Source of the DNA: a phage
Sequence record: PZ715802.1
Reading direction: 5' to 3' (one strand)
DNA: 49,124 bases
Part shown: piece after piece, positions 30,227 to 46,134 of the stretch
Numbering within the stretch: the first letter of the stretch is position 1
How the letters are laid out: every line of letters begins with the position of its first letter
The notes under the pieces: model-generated
Database searches by the model: none
What the model was told of the DNA's origin: nothing
The model's input: only the letters and a program-made list of their open reading frames with translations
Made by a program: the position numbers and the translations under genes

Positions 30227-31153
30227 TTATAATAAGTCACTTGCCTTGTAAAGCCTCCGCTCTATTCCATTTTTGAATTTACCGTTAATTGGTAGCATTA
30301 CGTCTAATTCTCGATCATCAGCAGCAATCAAAGTGTCGCGATCATTAGCATGGCACACAACGCGCATTTTGCGATCTCCTTTGTATCTGTATGCAACAAT
30401 TTCAAGATTTGAAGGTGAAAAACACGCCCATACTTCTTGCCCCGTCGCCATGTGTATATGTTGCGCATCAATCCAATCAACGCAAAGGTAAATTGTTTTG
30501 TCAGTCTTGCCAGTTACTGCAACGCTTCCGCGCGTGTAATCTTTCGCGTAAAAACTGCTTTTACCTTCCTCATTGACGAAAAGAATATTGCACATGTCAT
30601 CATCCAATTCATCACTATGCACCAGGTGGCAAGGAATAGCGTGTATATGCTCGCAATATCCATTTTCATGAGTTTTTACGCCCACTTGATACGATTCGCC
30701 GTCTAATGGATAAAACGCCTCAAAAACGCTTAGATTTGTTATTTCCATGCGTTCAGTTTTATCCATAACCTCAACACATTTTTCATGAGGCGCTTGAGAT
30801 CCGAAGTTGTAACCGGAATCACGCTTTGCCGCTTTGTTAGCCTTGTTGACAACCTCAACCGGAACCAGGTTTAACCATTCGCCTAGCGTGTCGATTGCTT
30901 CACTGTAATTTTCACCACGTATGCGCATGAATAATCCGATCCCTGAATCATTCCCGCATTGGTTGCAAATGTTTCCGCCGTCGCCTTTCTCGTTGATTTT
31001 GTCAGTCCAACGAAAGCGATCTTTACCGCCGCAATAAGGGCAAGGCTGATGCTTTCCGTTAAAGGTTAATTGAGGAATATCACAAAGTTTCATCAATGCC
31101 GCTTGCCACATGCCGCGCATCTTTGGGATCACTTCTTCTTTTTGATAATGCAT
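30227..31153 (-). CDS. DNA primase (zinc-ribbon type)
   Basis: ORF track; GGAGG RBS; CPYCGGKDRFRW...CNQCG zinc-ribbon motif. Confidence 0.55.
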   Translation of the reverse strand: MHYQKEEVIPKMRGMWQAALMKLCDIPQLTFNGKHQPCPYCGGKDRFRWTDKINEKGDGGNICNQCGNDSGIGLFMRIRGENYSEAIDTLGEWLNLVPVEVVNKANKAAKRDSGYNFGSQAPHEKCVEVMDKTERMEITNLSVFEAFYPLDGESYQVGVKTHENGYCEHIHAIPCHLVHSDELDDDMCNILFVNEEGKSSFYAKDYTRGSVAVTGKTDKTIYLCVDWIDAQHIHMATGQEVWACFSPSNLEIVAYRYKGDRKMRVVCHANDRDTLIAADDRELDVMLPINGKFKNGIERRLYKASDLL

Positions 31154-31908: not shown

Positions 31909-33882
31909 ATGATTCCTAACATTGAAAAGCAGATTGCAGATCTGGGAGAGGAAAGGATTAAGGCAATCCAGAAGCGTTTCACGGTTGGTGAGATTGTCCC
32001 GTATGAATACCAATGCGTTGCTTACGCTGAAATTGCAAAGCGCTTGAGTAAGTATGTTGATCCGTTTTTCGTTAAAGCGGCGGTGTCGGCAGGTAAAACA
32101 ATCATCTTTGCTATGGTTGCGGCTCAGTGCAGGAAAATGGGATTGAAAGCGTTATTTCTGGCGCGTCAATCTGAAATTGTGGATCAGGATTCAAAAGAGA
32201 TTAGCGCCTTTGGTGTTCCGAATTCCGTTTATTGCGCTGGCCTGAATACCAAAAGCGCTTATTTCCCGATTGTTGTAGGATCGGAAGGTACTGTAATTGG
32301 CGGATTGAATAAGGCGTTAGGTGATTACGTCCCACAGGTTTTAGGTATAGATGAATGTCATCAAGTCAACTGGAATGATATTGTTGAAGCCGAGGAAAAC
32401 GGCGAAAGCATAGAGCAAATGATGACACCGAAAGGTGAACCAGTTGAAGGGAATCCGTTGCTGATTGGTTCAGGCCGCGCACAATACACCATTATCATTG
32501 CAGAAATGCGCCGCCGTTGCCTTGAGACTTACGGTCATCAGTTGCGCATATTTGGAATGACAGGATCGGAATATCGCGGAATTGAGCCGATACTTGTCGA
32601 AGATAAAAGAATTCCTGGGTTTTGGCGTGAGCAGATCACAAACATTGATACTGATTACCTGGTAAAATTTGGTTCAGTTGTTCCCACTTATTTTGGCAAT
32701 GTTGGTGATTTGGGTTACGACTTATCAGAATTTACGCCAGTACATGAATTTGGCGTTGCTGATTATGACCAGAAGCAATTAAAGGCAATGAGTGACAAGA
32801 TTCACAAATCAGGAACCATGACGCAGAAAATAATGCAGATGGTTCATGAGGTGATGAAAAACCGCTTGTGCGCTCTTGTTACTTGCGCTGACGAAAGGCA
32901 CTGTAAAGAGGCGGCGGCGGCGCTTCCTCCTGGCACGAAATATCACATTATCACCGGAAAAACTGGAGAGAAACAGAGGCGCTTATGGCTTGAGGATGCT
33001 TATGAAGGCAGGGTGAAATATATTTTTCAGGTTCAGGCGCTAACAACTGGCGTGAACGTGCCGCCGTGGGATACTTCTGTTATTTTGCGTAAGATCGGAA
33101 GTCTAACGCTATTAACTCAGCTTTTGGGGCGTGGTATGCGTCAATTAAAAACATACCATAAAGAAGTATTGGGGATGCACAAAACGGATCACCTTGTTTT
33201 GGATTTTTCAGGCACGATGTTTGAAATGGGTAATTTGTATTTCGATCCGATGTTAGAGCAAGCGCAATTCCAGTTACGTAAATCACAGGACAAAGATCCG
33301 AAATATTGCCCGATTTGCGGTACAGAAAACTCATTCTATGCTCGCCGTTGCATTAATGAGGATGAAAACGGAAATCGTTGTGAACATTTCTGGACGTTCC
33401 AGGAATGTGAGGATCAGATTGATGACCGCACAAAGAAAGTTATTGTAAAAGGTTGCGGCGCAAAAAATGACGTTGCGGCGCGTGTATGCCGTTGCTGTAA
33501 TGTTCAGTTACGCGATCCAAATGATAACTTATCCGGCAAGATGTACCGTAAAAACGATTGGTGCGACGTGTTAGATTTTAATGTGACGCTGACAAAAAAC
33601 CAGGCTGGCGTAATATTCTGCTACACGTTACGTGATAGTGGCGGCGTAGAATTCAGGGCATACGAAAAATATTTCCCTGAATCAGAACACAAGATATGTA
33701 AAACTCTTTGGACAAAGGCGGTTAGAACACACGTTATAGATCGCCAGGCCGCAAACTTTATGATCACTTGCAGAAATGCAATTAAGATCATGAGTTATGC
33801 TGGGCAAATATTGCCACCAAAACGTGTTACCCATCGCAAGAACACAAAGAAAGAAGATTTGATCGCACAGAAGGAGTTTTAA
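31909..33882 (+). CDS. superfamily 2 DNA helicase with C-terminal Cys-rich region
   Basis: ORF track; Walker A SAGKT; DECH box; CPICG...C...C and CRCC clusters. Confidence 0.8.
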   Translation: MIPNIEKQIADLGEERIKAIQKRFTVGEIVPYEYQCVAYAEIAKRLSKYVDPFFVKAAVSAGKTIIFAMVAAQCRKMGLKALFLARQSEIVDQDSKEISAFGVPNSVYCAGLNTKSAYFPIVVGSEGTVIGGLNKALGDYVPQVLGIDECHQVNWNDIVEAEENGESIEQMMTPKGEPVEGNPLLIGSGRAQYTIIIAEMRRRCLETYGHQLRIFGMTGSEYRGIEPILVEDKRIPGFWREQITNIDTDYLVKFGSVVPTYFGNVGDLGYDLSEFTPVHEFGVADYDQKQLKAMSDKIHKSGTMTQKIMQMVHEVMKNRLCALVTCADERHCKEAAAALPPGTKYHIITGKTGEKQRRLWLEDAYEGRVKYIFQVQALTTGVNVPPWDTSVILRKIGSLTLLTQLLGRGMRQLKTYHKEVLGMHKTDHLVLDFSGTMFEMGNLYFDPMLEQAQFQLRKSQDKDPKYCPICGTENSFYARRCINEDENGNRCEHFWTFQECEDQIDDRTKKVIVKGCGAKNDVAARVCRCCNVQLRDPNDNLSGKMYRKNDWCDVLDFNVTLTKNQAGVIFCYTLRDSGGVEFRAYEKYFPESEHKICKTLWTKAVRTHVIDRQAANFMITCRNAIKIMSYAGQILPPKRVTHRKNTKKEDLIAQKEF

Positions 33883-33884
33883 AG

Positions 33885-34292
33885 ATGGTTACTGACAAAG
33901 GCGATTATCTGGAGTATTACAACAAATCAGATCCAGACGATAGGAAGGAGGAAGCGCACCAGGTTGATTCTTATTCATGGCTAACATATGAGTTTCCAAT
34001 GTGGCTTGTTTGGCACACTAAAAACGAGGGGAAGAAAACCATAGGCACAGCCGTAAAGGATCAGCAAGCGGGTGTGAAGAAGGGAGTTAGCGACATTCTA
34101 ATCCTGACTGGTTTTATTGGCTGCAAGTATTCATTTATAGCCATTGAGCTTAAACGCGCCAACAAGAAAGGCACGAAGGTAAGCGACGAACAAAAGGAAT
34201 TCTTGCGACGTGTCAGAGAGTGCGGAGGGTTTGCCGCCGTATGCTATGGAGTAGAGCAAGTAAAATTGGCTATCGCAGACGCTACAAAATAG
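33885..34292 (+). CDS. VRR-NUC domain nuclease
   Basis: ORF track; AAGGAG RBS; D..ELK and EQKEFLRRVRECGG motifs; stop codon is TAG of box. Confidence 0.55.
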   Translation: MVTDKGDYLEYYNKSDPDDRKEEAHQVDSYSWLTYEFPMWLVWHTKNEGKKTIGTAVKDQQAGVKKGVSDILILTGFIGCKYSFIAIELKRANKKGTKVSDEQKEFLRRVRECGGFAAVCYGVEQVKLAIADATK

Positions 34293-36228: not shown

Positions 36229-37344
36229 ATGAGTGCAGCAAAAATTACTGACGAACAACTTATAGCAGAAAGGGCGGCAGGTTTAAAACTGCGTGAGATT
36301 GCGGAAAAATACGGAATGAGCTTGCGCCAGGTTGAGCACCGTCACAGCAAATTGGCTAAGCGTGGCGAAATCTCAACTATCGGATCACCTGGATTTGCTG
36401 TAATTGGTGAATCACAGCTTAAACGTGCAAATGGTGAGGTTGTAATGACCTGGACTAAAACGCACAAAGACAAAGCGCAATTAGATGCAATAATGCAAGC
36501 GGCTATGGCTGCATTTTCGGAAGAATTGCCACGAGTAGAACCGCAACCGGAAAAGATTGTTGACTATTCGAAAACTCTTGCGCTATATCCGATCTTTGAT
36601 ATTCACATTGGCGCAATGGCGCACAAGCATGAAAGCGGTGAGAATTACGACACGGCGACGGCAGAAAAGATCATGAATGAATTCTTTGATTATGCCGTCG
36701 ATAAAGCACCGAATAGCGAAAAGGCTGTATTGCTGATTGGTGGTGATATGATTCACAGTGACGGTCTGGAGGCTGTAACACCTGCAAGCGGTCACGTTTT
36801 GGATCAGGATTCGCGATATGCGAAACTTGTTTATGTTGCCATTCGAGCCACGCGCAGAGCAGTAAGCCGAATGCTGGAAAAACATAAAGAGGTTGAATTG
36901 CAGATCATTGAAGGTAATCACGACCAATCAGGAATGATCTGGCTACGTGCTGCAATGGCGGCGGCGTATGAGAATGAGCCACGCGTAAAGGTTGATGTTT
37001 CTCCGCGCGTCGTGCATCACACTCAATATGGTAAAACTTTCCTAGCTTATCATCATGGTCACACTGTACGCAAGCCAGAAACGCTTTTAATGATGTGTGC
37101 AGCGGATTGGCGGGAAGATTTCGGAAACTCCAATTCAATGTATGCGCATGTAGGGCATTGGCATCACCAGACTGTTACAGAAACGAGCCTTGGCATTGTT
37201 GAGGTGCATAACACTATGGCAGCAAAAGACGCTTACGCCGCGCGTGGTGGCTGGCGTTCACGTCGCAGGGCGGCGGTAATTATTTATGATAAGGAATATG
37301 GCGAAATAGGGCGGTTTATGTTTTACCCCGAAATGATTGCTTAA
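36229..37344 (+). CDS. metallophosphoesterase (calcineurin-like) with N-terminal HTH
   Basis: ORF track; AGAGGA RBS; N-terminal LKLREIAEKYGMSLRQV; phosphoesterase motifs DIHIG, GGDMIHSD, GNHD, HHGH. Confidence 0.6.
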   Translation: MSAAKITDEQLIAERAAGLKLREIAEKYGMSLRQVEHRHSKLAKRGEISTIGSPGFAVIGESQLKRANGEVVMTWTKTHKDKAQLDAIMQAAMAAFSEELPRVEPQPEKIVDYSKTLALYPIFDIHIGAMAHKHESGENYDTATAEKIMNEFFDYAVDKAPNSEKAVLLIGGDMIHSDGLEAVTPASGHVLDQDSRYAKLVYVAIRATRRAVSRMLEKHKEVELQIIEGNHDQSGMIWLRAAMAAAYENEPRVKVDVSPRVVHHTQYGKTFLAYHHGHTVRKPETLLMMCAADWREDFGNSNSMYAHVGHWHHQTVTETSLGIVEVHNTMAAKDAYAARGGWRSRRRAAVIIYDKEYGEIGRFMFYPEMIA

Positions 37345-38171: not shown

Positions 38172-38557
38172 AAAAGAAATTAATGGCTGTTTTGATGTGC
38201 GTTATGCTTTCCGGTTGTTCTGCGTCGAGCTTGTTACCTGGCCTGATTGGTAGCAAGCCCGATATAACAGCACAGGCAGGATCTGAAAATGTGAAACAAA
38301 CTGTTGGTGTAACTGCAAAGCATGATACATCAAGCAATCAGGAAACCACATTTAAAGAATCGGCTGTTGGAAAGGTTGACACGTCGAATAAAAAACAGGT
38401 GAGCACTTCAAGCATTAAGGCAGATAACATCACAGCGGAAAGAATAGAGATCCGAAACAATGATGGTCTTAATGTTCCGGCAATCGCAATGGGTATATTG
38501 ATGTTTATTGCTGGTATGCTGGCAGGGTGGGCACTTAAACGTAACAAGGCGGCATAA
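38168..38557 (+). CDS. unimolecular spanin
   Basis: ATGA overlap with endolysin; lipobox LSGC at N-terminus and C-terminal [21 protein letters not shown], the architecture described for T1 gp11. Confidence 0.75.
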
Positions 38558-38573
38558 GCCGCCTTTTCTTTTA
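38547..38573. terminator. hairpin terminator at junction of convergent blocks
   Basis: stem aaggcggc/gccgcctt followed by TTCTTTT. Confidence 0.5.
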
Positions 38574-38871: not shown

Positions 38872-39066
38872 TTCAAAGCGCCTGACGTGAATTAGTAGTT
38901 CACCGTCATCATTTGTTAACTGGTGCTCATTATCTTCAAACGCTCGCATATCACTGTAAAGCAACAACATTAGTGCATAGACAAAATCATCATGCGAAAT
39001 TTGCATTGCTGAACTTTCTTTCAAAATAAGATCTATCAAATGCTGGCTTGCTGAATAATTCTTCAT
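38869..39066 (-). CDS. hypothetical protein (overlaps 38990-39382; status uncertain)
   Basis: track ORF; stop codon coincides with TAG of the box, as for several other genes. Confidence 0.3.
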   Translation of the reverse strand: MKNYSASQHLIDLILKESSAMQISHDDFVYALMLLLYSDMRAFEDNEHQLTNDDGELLIHVRRFE

Positions 39067-39382
39067 CGCTCATTTTCTCAATGTTCATCATCTCCCACAC
39101 ATAACGATTGGAATCACCTTCCAGGCTATGCAACTCAAAATTAAACGGCCTTTTCATCTTGTTTTTGCACCAGTACACGCAATGAACGCCGTCAAGATAT
39201 CCATAACCCATCATTCGCGCTATAAACTCTTTGCTTGAGCTTGAAGCGAAATAGCGGGGCGTTACCCCCGCATTTTTGGCGAGCCTTTCACATTCACGGT
39301 GACGGAATATAAATCTTGCTAACTCTTGGCGGTTGAATTTCTCGCGAGACTCGCAAAAGCGATACAGATCTAATAAGAACAT
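38990..39382 (-). CDS. hypothetical protein
   Basis: ORF track; GGGG RBS. Confidence 0.45.
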   Translation of the reverse strand: MFLLDLYRFCESREKFNRQELARFIFRHRECERLAKNAGVTPRYFASSSSKEFIARMMGYGYLDGVHCVYWCKNKMKRPFNFELHSLEGDSNRYVWEMMNIEKMSDEELFSKPAFDRSYFERKFSNANFA

Positions 39383-39384
39383 GA

Positions 39385-40965
39385 TTACCCCATTAACGCC
39401 GGATTTACATAAACAAATTTACCAACGCTGCAAACATAATTCTTTTCTTCAAGCATTGGCAATAATTGTTCCTCAATTCGTTTCATCACGCCTGATTGAC
39501 CTGTAAACGGCTTAACCTTACGCGCACTTTCATAGATAGCTCTTGCATTGGTAACGCCTTTATTTTGACGTGAGATCTTAATGATTATTTCAATTAACTT
39601 GCTCATTTCTGCATCATCGCCAGCGTGACCGGAAGCATTCGCGGCGTTGATATATGTTTTGCTTAATTCGCTGAACATCACCAAAGCCTCTTGCATTGTC
39701 TCAACTTCAATTTCTCGCGACTTTTGCGGCGTACCGTTTGGATTAAACCAATTGCGGATCGTGTGCAATACTGACGCAATGCGGATCACTTGCTTATCCA
39801 TTTTGCCCAAAGCACCACGCAACATTGTATGTGAATATTTCCCGCCGTCTGCTAAATCTGGCTCTAATTGCTGGCGAGCAATATTAAGAACACGCATTGC
39901 AGAACGTGACGGCTTCAATACAACATTTTGCTCAGTCATGATGTTATGAATCAACTGGAAATATTGCGCCTTTAATTCTTTATCAACTGGCGTGTAATCA
40001 AGATCACCATTTTCATCAATAAATACACGCTCGCCTAACATTGTTTTTTCACGTACAAGTAAGAAACGTTCACTAACACCGATACCACGCGCCCCTGCAT
40101 CCATGATCCCTTTTATCGTTTCATCCTGGGCAATTACGCTCATGCAGCCCAACGCAACAAAACTCATATTGTTTTCAGAGTTGGCGCGAGCTATTGAAAC
40201 GTGTCCGGCGTCCCATGCTTTTAGAACCAATTCGCTGTTAGTCTTGCGATCACTATTAGCGTAAGTCAATCCGAGTAAGCTGTTGATGCTTGTTGCTTCA
40301 TCGGAAATAACAGCAAAGTTACCCTGGCGATTGTTGATCTTTGCTAACCCTTCCGGCGTGGTGTCTGATACCGGAAAAACGATATCGCACATTTTTTCTA
40401 ACTTTTCCTCTAATTCCTCCTTTTCCTCAAACAACGCAGCTAACTCAGTGCCGGAACGTTCAGCTTTCAATTCCTTTTCAACGCCTTTTAATTTCGCTGC
40501 GATCTTCTTTCGCTCTTTCTTGCGTTGTTCGTTGATGCGCTCAACTTCACAGACCATTGGCGCAATAGCCAGGCTGTTGATTGCTGATTTACCAGTTGAT
40601 GGCGGCTGACTGGTTACAACGTAAAGCGCCGTTGGTTGTTCAGTGCCGTGGTACTCAACTTGGAAGCGTCCAACCATAGCGGCGGAAACGCAACCTATGA
40701 AATGCATATAGGCCGATGATTCAGGAAATTGAACAGATTGCGCAATGCTACGTGACAGTTTACCCACAACATCAACATCATTACCCAAAGAGATCACAGG
40801 ATAACGGTCATTAGCGCCGTTGATATCCTTCACAGGTTCCCAAAAGCTGGACGATTGGCGGTAGCCGTTCGACTGAATAGCAACGCGAAGCGGCGATGTT
40901 CCCTGCGATTCTGCAATGGCTATAACTTGTTGAGGTGTCAATTTGTTGGTGTCAAAGTCAAACAT
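39385..40965 (-). CDS. Walker-A ATPase, possibly replication-associated
   Basis: 526 aa; AAGGAGA RBS; SQPPSTGKSA P-loop-like motif; box element upstream. Confidence 0.5.
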   Translation of the reverse strand: MFDFDTNKLTPQQVIAIAESQGTSPLRVAIQSNGYRQSSSFWEPVKDINGANDRYPVISLGNDVDVVGKLSRSIAQSVQFPESSAYMHFIGCVSAAMVGRFQVEYHGTEQPTALYVVTSQPPSTGKSAINSLAIAPMVCEVERINEQRKKERKKIAAKLKGVEKELKAERSGTELAALFEEKEELEEKLEKMCDIVFPVSDTTPEGLAKINNRQGNFAVISDEATSINSLLGLTYANSDRKTNSELVLKAWDAGHVSIARANSENNMSFVALGCMSVIAQDETIKGIMDAGARGIGVSERFLLVREKTMLGERVFIDENGDLDYTPVDKELKAQYFQLIHNIMTEQNVVLKPSRSAMRVLNIARQQLEPDLADGGKYSHTMLRGALGKMDKQVIRIASVLHTIRNWFNPNGTPQKSREIEVETMQEALVMFSELSKTYINAANASGHAGDDAEMSKLIEIIIKISRQNKGVTNARAIYESARKVKPFTGQSGVMKRIEEQLLPMLEEKNYVCSVGKFVYVNPALMG

Positions 40966-40992
40966 CTAAAAATCTCCTTCTTGTTGCCGCTA

Positions 40993-41673: not shown

Positions 41674-41715
41674 TTATGCCGGATACGTGATCCGGCGTTT
41701 TAACAAAAAGTGCTA
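41674..41715 (-). promoter_or_regulatory. composite box element (minus): TAGCActtttTGTTA, 21 nt, CATAAT
   Basis: palindrome 41701-41715; spacer hairpin gccggatc/gatccggc. Confidence 0.55.
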
Positions 41716-42408
41716 TTTCTGATTTGCCAGGCATACAGCAAGCGCAAAGCCGCGCGGAGTGAGTGAGCGGATCAGCTTTGTTCGCTTAGACTTGCCGCCG
41801 AGCTTTTGCCAGCCTGGATTGTTGTTCCCTGTTGGCAATACTGCGTTTGTATCCGGCATTACAAAGCCGTTACCCGTCCAAAGACAAGTTTTTTTGGTGT
41901 ACGCATCGCGAGCGGGAATGATTTCAGGAAAGTGAGGATGTTTATCATCTTCCGGCAACAGACCTCCAAACGCGCAAGGATGAAAGATAAAATCAGGTTG
42001 CCGCCACATTGACGACAGAACACTAACAGGATTCTCAATCATGTATGGAACGTTAAACCGATCCGCAATATTGGCAGCAATCTTTGCCGTTTCAACCGCC
42101 TTTTTCTGGAAGTCTGGATCACGTTCACGCTTTGCGGCAAAGTGACGCGATCCACTAACAGCTAAATCAGTGCATGGAGGGAATGCAATAATAAAATCTG
42201 GAGTGCCAAAGACGCGCATCATTGCGTTATGCTGGAATGATAATCCGATCCACTCATTCAAATAAACTATGTTGGGATGAGTCACGCGCACTGATTGGTA
42301 ATCACCATGATCAGCACCGTCGAAATTAAAGCACAGCACTTTGTGACCACGTTCAGCCCACGGCAACGCAGCATAACCAGAACCATCAAATAGTGAGAAA
42401 ATAAGCAT
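41713..42408 (-). CDS. compact DNA cytosine-5 methyltransferase-like protein
   Basis: internal ATG of track ORF 41713-42462 with AAAGGA RBS; motif I LFDGSG, motif IV FPPC, motif VI ENP with spacing as in M.HhaI-type enzymes; only about 231 aa. Confidence 0.5.
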   Translation of the reverse strand: MLIFSLFDGSGYAALPWAERGHKVLCFNFDGADHGDYQSVRVTHPNIVYLNEWIGLSFQHNAMMRVFGTPDFIIAFPPCTDLAVSGSRHFAAKRERDPDFQKKAVETAKIAANIADRFNVPYMIENPVSVLSSMWRQPDFIFHPCAFGGLLPEDDKHPHFPEIIPARDAYTKKTCLWTGNGFVMPDTNAVLPTGNNNPGWQKLGGKSKRTKLIRSLTPRGFALAVCLANQK

Positions 42409-42516
42409 GTTTAAATCCTTTCTGTATGACCTTGTAAGGCGTTTTGTTTGTAGGTGTGACAATCGTATTAGTTACGGCCTGAAATCGCGACATAATGCGA
42501 AACAGGCCGCTATTTT

Positions 42517-44396: not shown

Positions 44397-44611
44397 TGCG
44401 CCACCTCCACAGTTTCAAATACGGTATTGAATGCCAGAAGTTTAAATTTCTTGCCAGGCTCAACCACTGCGATATTCCAGGTAATGCCGCCGTGATATGC
44501 AACCATATCATCAATATCAACAGTAACCTCAGTACCTTTTTTGAACAATCCTTTTTCGTGGCTCGCATCGCGTACAGTAACCACAGTTTCGAATTGAGTT
44601 TGAATTTCCAT
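44393..44611 (-). CDS. hypothetical protein
   Basis: ORF track; AGGAGA RBS. Confidence 0.45.
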   Translation of the reverse strand: MEIQTQFETVVTVRDASHEKGLFKKGTEVTVDIDDMVAYHGGITWNIAVVEPGKKFKLLAFNTVFETVEVAQ

Positions 44612-44642
44612 CGTTAATCTCCTGATTGGTTTCGATGGGGTA

Positions 44643-44685
44643 ACTATATCAAGATACCCCGATCCGGTTTTAACAAAAAATGCTA
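44643..44685 (-). promoter_or_regulatory. composite box element (minus): TAGCAtttttTGTTA, 22 nt, TATAGT
   Basis: palindrome 44671-44685. Confidence 0.55.
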
Positions 44686-44686
44686 T

Positions 44687-45121
44687 TTACAGCCATTCGC
44701 CGGAAACAATGAAATCAGTGAAATCGTCATGATCCAAAATGCTGTGATAGCCAGTGCAATAATCATTTTTAACCATGTTACCACGCAAACGCACATAATC
44801 AGCCTTTCGATCCGTAATCCAACGAATAAAGCGAGCGTTACGTTGTGGTATCGTTCCGGCGTAAGCCTCTTTGAATCCAATGTGTGCGATGAATGCCACA
44901 AAGCGGATTTGCAAGCCTGGATTGTCTTTCTTTGCCTCGTTAACCAGGTCGCGGAAGTTTTCACGCGTTGGCTTGACCGGAACCAATTCGCCTAACTCGA
45001 TCATGCGGTTGAAGTCTGAAACACTGGAAGATGATTCCATAAACAGCCCATCGCTACCAAACATCACAACGCCGCTTTCGATGAAGTAAGTGTGTCCGTT
45101 GTATTTGTTGGTGTATTTCAT
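44687..45121 (-). CDS. hypothetical protein
   Basis: internal ATG of track ORF 44687-45157 with GAGGA RBS; first gene after the minus-strand box at 45153-45195. Confidence 0.5.
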   Translation of the reverse strand: MKYTNKYNGHTYFIESGVVMFGSDGLFMESSSSVSDFNRMIELGELVPVKPTRENFRDLVNEAKKDNPGLQIRFVAFIAHIGFKEAYAGTIPQRNARFIRWITDRKADYVRLRGNMVKNDYCTGYHSILDHDDFTDFIVSGEWL

Positions 45122-45152
45122 CGTGAATTCCTCATTTCGTTTCGATGAAGTA

Positions 45153-45195
45153 ATCATAGCAATTCGCGTCTGATTGGTTTTAACAAAAAGTGCTA
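45153..45195 (-). promoter_or_regulatory. composite box element (minus): TAGCActtttTGTTA, 22 nt, TATGAT
   Basis: palindrome 45181-45195; first promoter of the minus-strand block. Confidence 0.55.
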
Positions 45196-45205
45196 TTCAT
45201 GCAAT

Positions 45206-45233
45206 AGACCGATTGGTCTAGACCGTTTGGTCT
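45206..45233. promoter_or_regulatory. operator-like tandem 14-bp palindromic repeats AGACCGATTGGTCT / AGACCGTTTGGTCT
   Basis: two adjacent copies differing at one base; includes perfect 10-bp palindrome GGTCTAGACC. Confidence 0.45.
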
Positions 45234-45269
45234 AATGAACGCATCGTTTTGTGTATCGAACGCATTCAT

Positions 45270-45297
45270 GATCCTGTTACGTGATCGTTATATGATC
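45270..45297. repeat. cluster of three GATC sites within 28 bp
   Basis: GATC at 45270, 45283, 45294 inside a non-coding region; the phage encodes a Dam-type methyltransferase. Confidence 0.4.
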
Positions 45298-45513
45298 AGA
45301 TGATGATTGATGTGTGAGATTTTGTGATTGAAATTGATTTGATTTGATTAGATTTGAGTAGTGAGTGAGTAGAAATAATCACACCTTGCCGATCAGTGAA
45401 AACTTTTCCCGCAAAACATCACTCCATGCTCCGCGCGTTTCGTTTTGTTCCTCGTTGTTTTCCGCCAGACCTTCCGCAGTTTAGCGCAACGTTACACAAC
45501 ACGTATAACAACA

Positions 45514-45570
45514 AAATATCTATATAATACATTGAAAAGTAAGATAATTATTATTATATATCTATATTGT
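45514..45570 (+). repeat. AT-rich repeat copy B
   Basis: matches copy A at 24742-24799. Confidence 0.6.
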
Positions 45571-45784
45571 TATATAACTTGTTTTGCTTGTTTCTTGTGA
45601 TATTGATACCCATTTGCGGATTGATAGAGTATAAAATTATAAGATAGGTGCTCTTATTTATTATGGGTGATGCTGATTTTTTGCGAAATAGTGTAACGAT
45701 TTAGAACACCGTTGATTTGAAAGGATAAATTTTCAAATCCTGTTATATTGCGTGATGTTTTTGTTGCCTAATCAAAAATAACAC

Positions 45785-45846: not shown

Positions 45847-46134
45847 ATGGTAAGGGGCAAAATCGTAAAGCGTGACCTATCCATAGTTGATGCAACGCCA
45901 GAAGATGCAACCAAAGATATCATGCGCCTAATGTACATAGCGCGGATAATTGAGGCGGCAAAACCAAACAGGCTGTATTACATCGACGTTAAGGCATCCG
46001 GTCGAGATGTTAACTCATTGCGCCAGGCAATAAACACGATTGCGAAAGAGGATCGCAGAACCATTAAAACAATAACCACTGATAACGGCTATATCGGCTT
46101 TGTTATCATCGACGTTAAAGAAGCGTTTGTGTAA
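45847..46134 (+). CDS. hypothetical protein
   Basis: ORF track; GGAGGA RBS. Confidence 0.5.
   Translation: MVRGKIVKRDLSIVDATPEDATKDIMRLMYIARIIEAAKPNRLYYIDVKASGRDVNSLRQAINTIAKEDRRTIKTITTDNGYIGFVIIDVKEAFV

What the first reader, a model, noticed from the sequence alone, without database searches (positions are those of the whole stretch)
39385..40965. Large Walker-A ATPase of unclear family inside the accessory block
The 526-aa protein has a P-loop-like SQPPSTGKSA and a strong RBS but matches no family I can name from sequence. It is the largest non-structural protein without a clear assignment and lies between unknown small genes, not in the primase-helicase cluster. It might be a replication initiator, a DNA translocase or a defence-related ATPase.
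Basis: inference. Interest (0 to 1): 0.5.

Follow-up and report, generated by a model that had tools for sequence, protein, structure and literature searches.

The report
MCM-like DUF3987 helicase of a T1-like phage
The 526-aa "unassignable" ATPase belongs to the known DUF3987 family of MCM-like helicases, is conserved in hundreds of T1-like phages, is already labelled "DNA helicase" in public records, and is most likely the phage's replication-fork helicase.

Summary
A 526-aa ORF lies at 39385-40965 on the minus strand, with an AAGGAG ribosome-binding site and a P-loop, SQPPSTGKSA. The claim of "no nameable family" does not hold.

- **Identity:** The window is a Tlsvirus genome (Drexlerviridae). 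The protein is 100% identical to the annotated "DNA helicase" of phages LL5 and Stevie, and 59% identical to T1 gp9.
- **Family:** It matches Pfam DUF3987 (E=6e-43) and PHROG 2373 "DNA helicase" (E=4e-253).
- **Catalytic residues:** K126, E223, Q280 and R300 (in an MCM-like "SERF" motif) are invariant across the family.
- **Link to replication:** Relatives are fused to primases or a DnaB N-domain, or sit directly upstream of the same primase, SF2 helicase and VRR-NUC genes that this phage keeps 6-9 kb away. The location in the "accessory block" therefore reflects a rearrangement in this phage lineage.
- **Prior work:** DUF3987 was classed as an SF6 helicase in 2016, and one member was shown to be a 5'->3' helicase in 2025.

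The most likely role is the replicative, possibly self-loading, helicase. The finding is ordinary and already known. No T1-like member has been tested biochemically, and no DUF3987 structure has been solved.

The parts
39385..40965 (-). CDS for a 526-aa DUF3987-family, MCM-like AAA+ (SF6) putative replicative helicase. It is the orthologue of T1 gp9 (ST9) and TLS 'yfiJ'.
   Evidence: ORF. Pfam DUF3987 E=5.9e-43. PHROG 2373. 99% nt identity to Stevie, phSE-2 and U136B. 59% aa identity to T1 ST9.
40974..40979 (-). Ribosome-binding site AAGGAG, 8 nt upstream of the ATG.
   Evidence: Sequence read. An RBS is annotated at the same place in U136B.
40786..40965 (-). N-terminal module (residues 1-60): three short helices followed by a linker. 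Relatives carry a primase or a DnaB N-domain at this end. Inferred to be a partner- or primase-docking module.
   Evidence: DSSP of the model. Profile coverage and fusions in relatives.
40036..40770 (-). AAA+ ATPase core (about residues 66-310), with a fold closest to the MCM AAA+ domain.
40585..40608 (-). Walker A motif, Q120-P-P-S-T-G-K-S127.
   Evidence: Invariant in A2. K126 is invariant family-wide.
40393..40554 (-). Long, highly charged helical hairpin (about residues 138-191) inserted between the Walker A helix and the next strand. 53% of its residues are K/R/D/E.
   Evidence: DSSP helices 124-168 and 172-191. Composition. Present in all aligned homologues.
40297..40317 (-). Walker B strand F217-A-V-I-S-D-E223. 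E223 is invariant, while D222 is A in some members.
40156..40203 (-). Beta-hairpin (residues 255-270) immediately before the sensor-1 strand, carrying invariant R260. Inferred to be a pre-sensor-1 beta-hairpin that contacts DNA.
   Evidence: DSSP strands 255-258 and 267-270 before strand 273-279. R260 and Q280 are invariant. The assignment is an inference.
40063..40074 (-). S298-E-R-F301, with invariant R300 just before strand 301-305. Inferred arginine finger, compare the MCM 'SRF' motif.
   Evidence: The comparison with the MCM SRF motif rests on established knowledge of MCM.
39751..39981 (-). Alpha-helical lid (residues 329-405) with R383, G384, G387, K388 and D390. K388 is invariant family-wide. 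Candidate sensor-2 region.
39388..39705 (-). C-terminal helical plus winged-helix domain (residues 421-526). It also matches PHROG 7327 on its own.
38990..39382 (-). Downstream 130-aa gene, starting 2 nt after the helicase stop codon. It encodes a winged-helix protein with a conserved C-terminal SDEELF motif and is the orthologue of T1 gp10. The pair is conserved in Drexlerviridae. Inferred to be a DNA-binding or adaptor partner.
38546..38565 (.). Bidirectional intrinsic terminator that ends the leftward operon and the convergent lysis cassette.
   Evidence: A terminator is annotated at the same position in T1 and Sweeny.
30227..31153 (-). Stand-alone primase (Zn-ribbon type, 308 aa) with no helicase domain. 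Presumed working partner of the DUF3987 helicase.
   Evidence: Pfam Zn_Ribbon_Prim. PHROG 510 'DNA primase', covering only the first half of that profile.
31909..34292 (+). SF2 helicase (ResIII/Helicase_C, 657 aa) followed by a VRR-NUC nuclease. In distant relatives this pair lies directly downstream of the DUF3987 gene and the primase.
   Evidence: Synteny in L004-L006, L008 and L009.

Best explanation
The gene encodes the phage's own replication-fork helicase. It is a DUF3987-family, MCM-like AAA+ (superfamily 6) ATPase. The proposed mechanism is as follows. The protein assembles into a ring. ATP binds at subunit interfaces through Walker A K126, Walker B E223 and sensor-1 Q280, with R300 of the neighbouring subunit acting in trans. 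The ring then translocates on single-stranded DNA to open the duplex. The phage encodes no DNA polymerase, so the helicase would work with the separate phage Zn-ribbon primase and the host polymerase. Its C-terminal winged helix, possibly together with the translationally coupled 130-aa winged-helix protein encoded just downstream, probably directs loading at the phage origin or recruits partners. Shown here: family membership, fold, motif conservation, conserved synteny, and genomic linkage or fusion with primases in relatives. Inferred: ring formation, helicase activity, polarity (5'->3' if it behaves like the one characterised member), the origin-loading role of the winged helices, and use of host Pol III.
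For: - **Family:** Pfam DUF3987 scores 147.9 bits against a cut-off of 27, and PHROG 2373 'DNA helicase' gives E=4e-253.
- **Catalytic residues:** K126, E223, Q280, R300 and K388 are invariant in 49 members at 24-37% identity.
- **Fusions in relatives:** These include DnaG Zn-finger primase, Prim-Pol, BT4734-type AEP, the NrS-1 polymerase helix bundle and the DnaB N-terminal domain.
- **Gene order in relatives:** Relatives at 35-38% identity lie immediately upstream of primase, SF2 helicase, VRR-NUC, exonuclease, Erf and SSB genes.
- **Need for a helicase:** The window's primase lacks a helicase domain. No DNA polymerase is annotated in T1 or in the parts of U136B and TLS examined.
- **Conservation:** The gene is present in 920 phage records and at the same position in T1, TLS, U136B and Webervirus.
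- **Literature:** DUF3987 proteins were classed as divergent SF6 replicative helicases with a C-terminal wHTH (PMC4889955). A PriCT-DUF3987 protein is an ATP/dATP-dependent 5'->3' helicase that is inactivated by Walker A and B mutations and binds its primase-polymerase (PMC11724360).
Against: - No biochemical or genetic data for any T1-like member were found.
- In this phage the gene is not adjacent to the primase.
- The phage has a second helicase (SF2, 31909-33882) that could in principle be the fork helicase.
- The characterised relative AgaPH has a PriCT domain and works with an AEP PrimPol, so it is a distant context. Its similarity to this protein was not measured.
- N4 dns, the genetically essential member cited in the literature, matches only weakly here: 24.2 bits, below the Pfam cut-off, and hhalign probability 13%.
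- From memory, and unverified: a 1980 Virology paper by Bourque and Christensen reports that T1 DNA synthesis needs host elongation dna genes. If dnaB is among them, this explanation fails.
Confidence: 0.65

Rival explanations
1. The protein is an origin-binding initiator or helicase loader, not the fork helicase. It would use its AAA+ module and winged helix to melt the phage origin and recruit host DnaB, as ORC/Cdc6, DnaA or lambda O/P do. Bulk unwinding would be done by DnaB.
Confidence: 0.15
2. The protein is a recombination or repair motor, acting as a branch-migration or fork-restart translocase like MCM8/9, ComM or RuvB. It would support the recombination-dependent concatemer formation of T1-like phages.
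Against: The block also contains the primase. The recurrent fusion partners are primases, not recombinases. The SF2 helicase and VRR-NUC pair is the more obvious branch-processing module.
Confidence: 0.12
3. The protein is a defence-related or counter-defence ATPase carried in an accessory gene block.
For: It lies among small genes of unknown function and next to a DNA methyltransferase gene.
Against: There is no PADLOC match for it or its neighbours. It is a conserved gene of Drexlerviridae and related siphophages at a fixed position, not a variable gene acquired from elsewhere. Its fold and fusions point to replication.
Confidence: 0.03

Closest known systems
DUF3987 (Pfam PF13148) helicases of phages and mobile elements, including AgaPH (PriCT-DUF3987, Seonamhaeicola; PMC11724360), E. 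coli CP4-57 YfjI-type proteins, and T1 gp9 / TLS 'yfiJ'
   Same: The protein gives a full-length match to the family HMM. It shares the Walker A and B residues and the architecture the literature reports for the family, an ATPase followed by a small C-terminal winged helix. Primase association is seen in relatives. The protein is 100% identical to the LL5/Stevie protein.
   Different: It has no PriCT or primase domain of its own. It is encoded 6-9 kb from the primase, in a different operon. In Drexlerviridae it is paired with a small winged-helix protein that is absent next to the distant relatives. Activity and polarity are untested for this clade.
MCM (minichromosome maintenance) replicative helicases of archaea and eukaryotes, superfamily 6
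   Different: There is no match to the MCM Pfam model in any of 49 members. Sequence identity is only 11-17%. The N-terminal OB-fold/Zn domain is absent, because the N-terminus is about 100 residues of helices. A 55-residue charged helical hairpin follows the Walker A helix. The one characterised DUF3987 helicase runs 5'->3', whereas established knowledge is that MCM runs 3'->5'.
Self-loading primase-helicases of mobile elements: SCCmec Cch (DUF927), SaPI Rep / SaPI5 primase-helicase, and phage P4 alpha
   Different: Their structural similarity is clearly weaker than that of MCM. They belong to different Pfam families. For this protein no origin iterons were identified beside the gene.
Phage N4 dns (gp43)
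   Same: The literature cites it as a DUF3987-type helicase essential for replication. The alignment places its GKG P-loop opposite the Walker A of this protein.
   Different: The relationship is only marginal here: Pfam 24.2 bits, below the cut-off of 27, and hhalign probability 13%. N4 gp43 also carries a C-terminal primase part (PriCT_1).

Membership tests
DUF3987 (PF13148) | Score above the Pfam gathering threshold over most of the model | tested here: met
   147.9 bits against a cut-off of 27. Residues 81-432 cover model positions 3-352 of 364. All 49 diverse relatives also match.
DUF3987 (PF13148) | Conserved Walker A Lys and Walker B Glu, the residues whose mutation kills AgaPH helicase activity | tested here: met
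   K126 and E223 are invariant across 49 members. The AgaPH K213A and E297Q mutants are inactive.
DUF3987 (PF13148) | [quoted passage not shown] | tested here: met
DUF3987 (PF13148) | Encoded next to, or fused with, an AEP or DnaG-type primase | tested here: inconclusive
   Not adjacent in this window, where the primase lies at 30227-31153, about 8 kb away. Adjacent or fused in relatives.
DUF3987 (PF13148) | ATP-dependent DNA unwinding | not testable with these tools
   Shown only for AgaPH.
MCM family proper (PF00493, SF6) | Match to the MCM sequence model | tested here: not met
   No MCM hit at E<=1 for the protein, or at E<=0.01 for 49 relatives. No PDB hit by sequence or by profile.
MCM family proper (PF00493, SF6) | AAA+ core of MCM type, as closest structural neighbour | tested here: met
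MCM family proper (PF00493, SF6) | N-terminal domain with OB fold and zinc motif | tested here: not met
   Residues 1-100 are modelled as helices only, and there is no Cys/His cluster.
MCM family proper (PF00493, SF6) | Pre-sensor-1 beta-hairpin and helix-2 insert | tested here: inconclusive
   A hairpin at 255-270 precedes strand 273-279, consistent with a pre-sensor-1 hairpin. No beta-hairpin is seen in helix 204-214. Instead a helical hairpin at 138-191 follows helix 1. No residue-level superposition could be inspected.
MCM family proper (PF00493, SF6) | 3'->5' translocation polarity | not testable with these tools
   The only measured DUF3987 member is 5'->3'.
DnaB-type (SF4, RecA-fold) replicative helicase | RecA-type ATPase domain or DnaB_C model match | tested here: not met
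   No such Pfam hit. The structural neighbours are AAA+ proteins.
Anti-phage defence ATPases (PADLOC models) | Match to any defence-system protein model | tested here: not met
   No hits at E<=0.1 for the protein or three neighbours.

The most novel reading that the evidence does not exclude
The most novel reading that the evidence does not exclude has three parts. First, T1-like phages replicate with an MCM-fold ring helicase that runs 5'->3' on the lagging strand, taking the place and polarity of DnaB. Second, this helicase loads itself at the phage origin through its C-terminal winged helix and the co-translated winged-helix/SDEELF partner, making a minimal two-protein initiator-helicase. 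Third, it couples directly to host Pol III. The charged helical hairpin after Walker A would replace the MCM helix-2 insert as the DNA- or partner-contacting element.
Probability: 0.25. Interest if true: 0.5.

Novelty: already known. Interest (0 to 1): 0.22.

Why it matters
The result matters mainly for annotation. The largest "unassigned" non-structural protein of this phage has a clear family, a confident fold and a probable job, so it should not be counted as an unknown ATPase or a defence candidate. There is a modest wider point. T1-like phages are classical, abundant and used therapeutically, yet their presumed fork helicase has never been tested biochemically. No DUF3987 protein has a solved structure. 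The one measured relative has the opposite polarity to canonical MCMs. A structure and polarity measurement for the T1/TLS protein would show how an MCM-type AAA+ core was adapted to work with bacterial replisome parts.

Tried and rejected
- **NCBIfam:** no meaningful hit.
- **PDB by sequence and by profile:** only noise. This included a non-significant resemblance of the N-terminal 'LTPQQVIAIAESQG' to TALE repeats, E about 6.
- **PADLOC:** nothing for the protein or its neighbours, so the defence reading was dropped.
- **Literature on Drexlerviridae helicase escape mutants:** the papers found concern capsid, tail or RecA-type helicases, not this protein.
- **Literature on T1 replication genetics and host dna gene requirements:** nothing is held in the library. 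The supplement of Kazlauskas 2016 that might list T1 is not held.
- **N4 dns as a close, genetically validated relative:** only marginal similarity, so it is not used as strong support.
- **Iterons or an origin next to the gene:** only short two-copy matches within 38.5-41 kb, which are likely chance.
- **Partner protein as a duplicate of the helicase's own winged helix:** no similarity (hhalign probability 0.1%).
- **Promoter directly upstream:** no convincing promoter in the scan, and fewer consensus matches than in shuffles. The gene is probably read as part of the long leftward operon.

Full report
**1. The observation**

The ORF is real. One search lists it at 39385..40965 on the minus strand, with an ATG start and 526 codons. 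An AAGGAG box lies at 40979-40974, 8 nt upstream of the start. SQPPSTGKSA occupies residues 119-128. An open frame this long has a chance probability of about 2e-13 at the window's composition, and 50 shuffles gave at most 220 codons. The flanking genes are small and unnamed. The primase (30227-31153, minus strand) and the SF2 helicase (31909-33882, plus strand) lie 6-9 kb away.

**2. What the window is**

The gene is 98.6-99.2% identical at the DNA level to Citrobacter phage Stevie, Salmonella phage phSE-2, Escherichia phages U136B and TLS, and others. These are Tlsvirus phages of the family Drexlerviridae.

- The protein is 100% identical to proteins annotated "DNA helicase" in phage LL5 and Stevie.
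- The original TLS record already called it "yfiJ: putative ATPase".
- It is 59% identical to T1 gp9 (ST9, "DNA helicase").
- tblastn finds it in 920 phage records, mostly Klebsiella, Escherichia, Salmonella and Shigella siphophages.

**3. Family**

- Pfam DUF3987 (PF13148) matches residues 81-432 with E=5.9e-43 (147.9 bits; cut-off 27).
- PHROG 2373 "DNA helicase" matches end to end with E=4e-253. The last 86 residues also match PHROG 7327 on their own.
- NCBIfam and PADLOC give nothing.
- A profile search of 1.84 billion representative proteins finds 6443 relatives at E<=1e-3 and 4004 at E<=1e-10. This is a large family.

**4. Structure**

An AlphaFold2 model built from 35 homologues is confident, with mean pLDDT 89.4 and pTM 0.87. 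Along the chain the model shows:

- a small three-helix N-terminal module (11-41);
- two helices (66-97);
- a strand leading into the P-loop (115-127);
- a 45-residue helix and a return helix (124-168 and 172-191) forming a charged hairpin, with 53% K/R/D/E;
- the Walker B strand (217-221);
- a beta-hairpin (255-270);
- the next core strand (273-279);
- a helix (281-292);
- strand 301-305;
- a helical lid (329-405);
- a C-terminal helical and winged-helix domain (421-520).

Foldseek independently ranks only MCM subunits in its first 14 places, with probability 1.00 and E from 4.6e-6 to 2.5e-3. By sequence or profile there is no PDB match at all. No DUF3987 protein therefore appears to have been solved, and the MCM link is visible only at the level of fold.

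**5. Motifs**

Among 35 homologues down to 34% identity, the following are invariant:

- Q120, P121, P122, G125, K126, S127;
- S221, E223;
- I278, A279, D281, E282;
- G296, E299, R300;
- R383, G384, G387, K388, D390.

Across 49 wider relatives (24-37% identity), the invariant set shrinks to P81, K126, E205, E223, R260, Q280, G296, R300, E306 and K388.

Read against the model, I assign these residues as follows. The assignments are inferences from order and conservation, not from a superposition.

| Residue(s) | Assigned role |
|---|---|
| K126 | Walker A lysine |
| E223 | Walker B glutamate |
| R260 | basic residue in the hairpin before the sensor-1 strand |
| Q280 | sensor 1 |
| R300 (in S-E-R-F) | arginine finger, at the place of the MCM "SRF" motif |
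| K388 / R383 | lid, sensor-2-like residues |

**6. Context**

Relatives show otherwise.

At 35-38% identity the gene sits immediately upstream of primase, SF2 helicase, VRR-NUC, exonuclease VIII/DUF3799, Erf or another annealing protein, and SSB. This is seen in:

- three metagenomic phage contigs (L004-L006);
- Escherichia phage C1;
- Pseudoalteromonas phage XCL1123.

The window contains that same set of genes at 25-34 kb: DUF3799 exonuclease, Erf, Zn-ribbon primase, SF2 helicase and VRR-NUC. In Drexlerviridae the DUF3987 gene has simply been moved to the end of the leftward early operon, where it is convergent with the lysis cassette. That arrangement is conserved in T1, TLS, U136B and Webervirus Sweeny.

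Other relatives are fused to primases or primase-associated domains: DnaG-type Zn finger, Prim-Pol, BT4734-type AEP, the NrS-1 polymerase helix bundle and the DnaB N-terminal domain. The window's own primase is only 308 aa, shows no helicase domain in Pfam, and covers only the first half of its PHROG profile.

**7. The partner**

The next gene (38990-39382, 130 aa) starts 2 nt after the helicase stop codon. It is 53% identical to T1 gp10, belongs to PHROG 2794, and follows the helicase in T1, TLS, U136B and Sweeny.

- It is followed by a nearly invariant S-D-E-E-L-F motif, which in some homologues is the very C-terminus.
- It is not found next to the distant relatives.
- It is unrelated in sequence to the helicase's own winged helix.
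- I treat it as a lineage-specific DNA-binding or adaptor partner. This is an inference.

**8. Literature**

- Kazlauskas et al. 2016 classed phage DUF3987 proteins as divergent SF6 (MCM-like) replicative helicases with a C-terminal wHTH, often next to or fused with primases. They named N4 dns as an essential member (PMC4889955).
- Kazlauskas et al. 2018 list DUF3987 among ATPase domains fused to AEP primases (PMC5862659).
- A 2025 paper showed that a PriCT-DUF3987 protein (AgaPH) elutes from gel filtration as an apparent oligomer and is an ATP/dATP-dependent helicase. [quoted passage not shown]
- My structural results reproduce the 2016 assignment independently.
- The N4 link is only marginal in my hands.

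**9. Most likely mechanism and rivals**

Best explanation (confidence 0.65): this is the phage's fork helicase, an MCM-like AAA+ ring. It would work with the stand-alone phage primase and a host polymerase, and it may be loaded through its winged helix and the partner protein.

Rivals:

- **Initiator or loader for host DnaB (0.15).** This would be favoured if T1 needs dnaB. I recall, but could not verify, an old report that T1 requires host elongation genes.
- **Recombination or fork-restart motor (0.12).**
- **Defence or counter-defence ATPase (0.03).**

**10. Membership and novelty**

The protein is a member of DUF3987. It works like an MCM AAA+ motor but is not a member of the MCM family proper: there is no MCM HMM match, no OB/Zn N-domain, a helical hairpin insert, and probably the opposite polarity.

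Nothing about the assignment is new. The identical protein is already annotated as a helicase, and the family was placed in SF6 in 2016. The open points are experimental ones for this clade: activity, polarity, loading, the role of the partner, and structure.

Noticed in passing
window 45195-45600: An AT-rich intergenic region lies between the leftward early operon (which ends near 45157) and the rightward genes (which start near 45847). It contains a 29-nt palindrome (45195-45244), short TTGATT-type tandem repeats (45324-45355) and a 35-nt inverted repeat (45495-45586). By comparison with T1 it corresponds to the genome-end, divergent early promoter region. It could hold pac, promoters or an origin.
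   Followed up: no
window 44606-44687 and 45116-45197: Two direct repeats (47 nt at 70% identity and 22 nt at 95% identity) recur with the same 510-nt spacing at the starts of two neighbouring small leftward genes (families D1-D3). This suggests a local duplication of a small early gene with its upstream signals.
   Followed up: no
window 38990-39382 (-): The 130-aa winged-helix partner carries a nearly invariant S-D-E-E-L-F motif (residues 105-110). In some homologues this motif is the extreme C-terminus. It resembles the acidic-hydrophobic tails used for protein docking, such as the SSB tip, but its target is unknown.
   Followed up: partly
window 40924-40965 (-), residues 1-14 of the protein onward: The N-terminal stretch KLTPQQVIAIAESQG resembles the consensus of TAL-effector repeats (LTPxQVVAIAS). 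The hits to Hax3/dHax3 have E about 6-9, which is not significant. It is probably coincidence.
   Followed up: no
window 41713-42462 (-): The 249-aa protein annotated in relatives as a C-5 cytosine (dcm) methyltransferase has no Pfam hit at E<=0.1, but it matches PHROG 757 'DNA methyltransferase' (E=2e-87). U136B and TLS annotate different start sites for this gene.
   Followed up: no
window 36229-37344 (+): The 371-aa 'DNA repair exonuclease / phosphoesterase' gives weak, below-threshold Pfam HTH matches at its N-terminus (HTH_23, E=0.0025, residues 11-39), ahead of the nuclease body (PHROG 704). It lies directly upstream of the lysis cassette.
   Followed up: no
phage records: for example phiEB49, phiJLA23, vB_EcoS-2006IV; Klebsiella phage KL 6221-6508: Some Drexlerviridae records show two tblastn places for this protein. 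Klebsiella phage KL matches only the C-terminal winged-helix part (residues 430-525, 43% identity) in an unannotated stretch. The C-terminal domain also has its own PHROG (7327). The domain may occur on its own, or the gene may be split in some phages.
   Followed up: partly
phage records MG065640, MG065681, MG065669, MG065638: About 21 records labelled 'Campylobacter phage' with host C. jejuni carry a T1-like helicase about 79% identical to this one, and they have T1-like genome sizes. These look like enterobacterial Drexlerviridae that were mislabelled or came from contaminated preparations.
   Followed up: no
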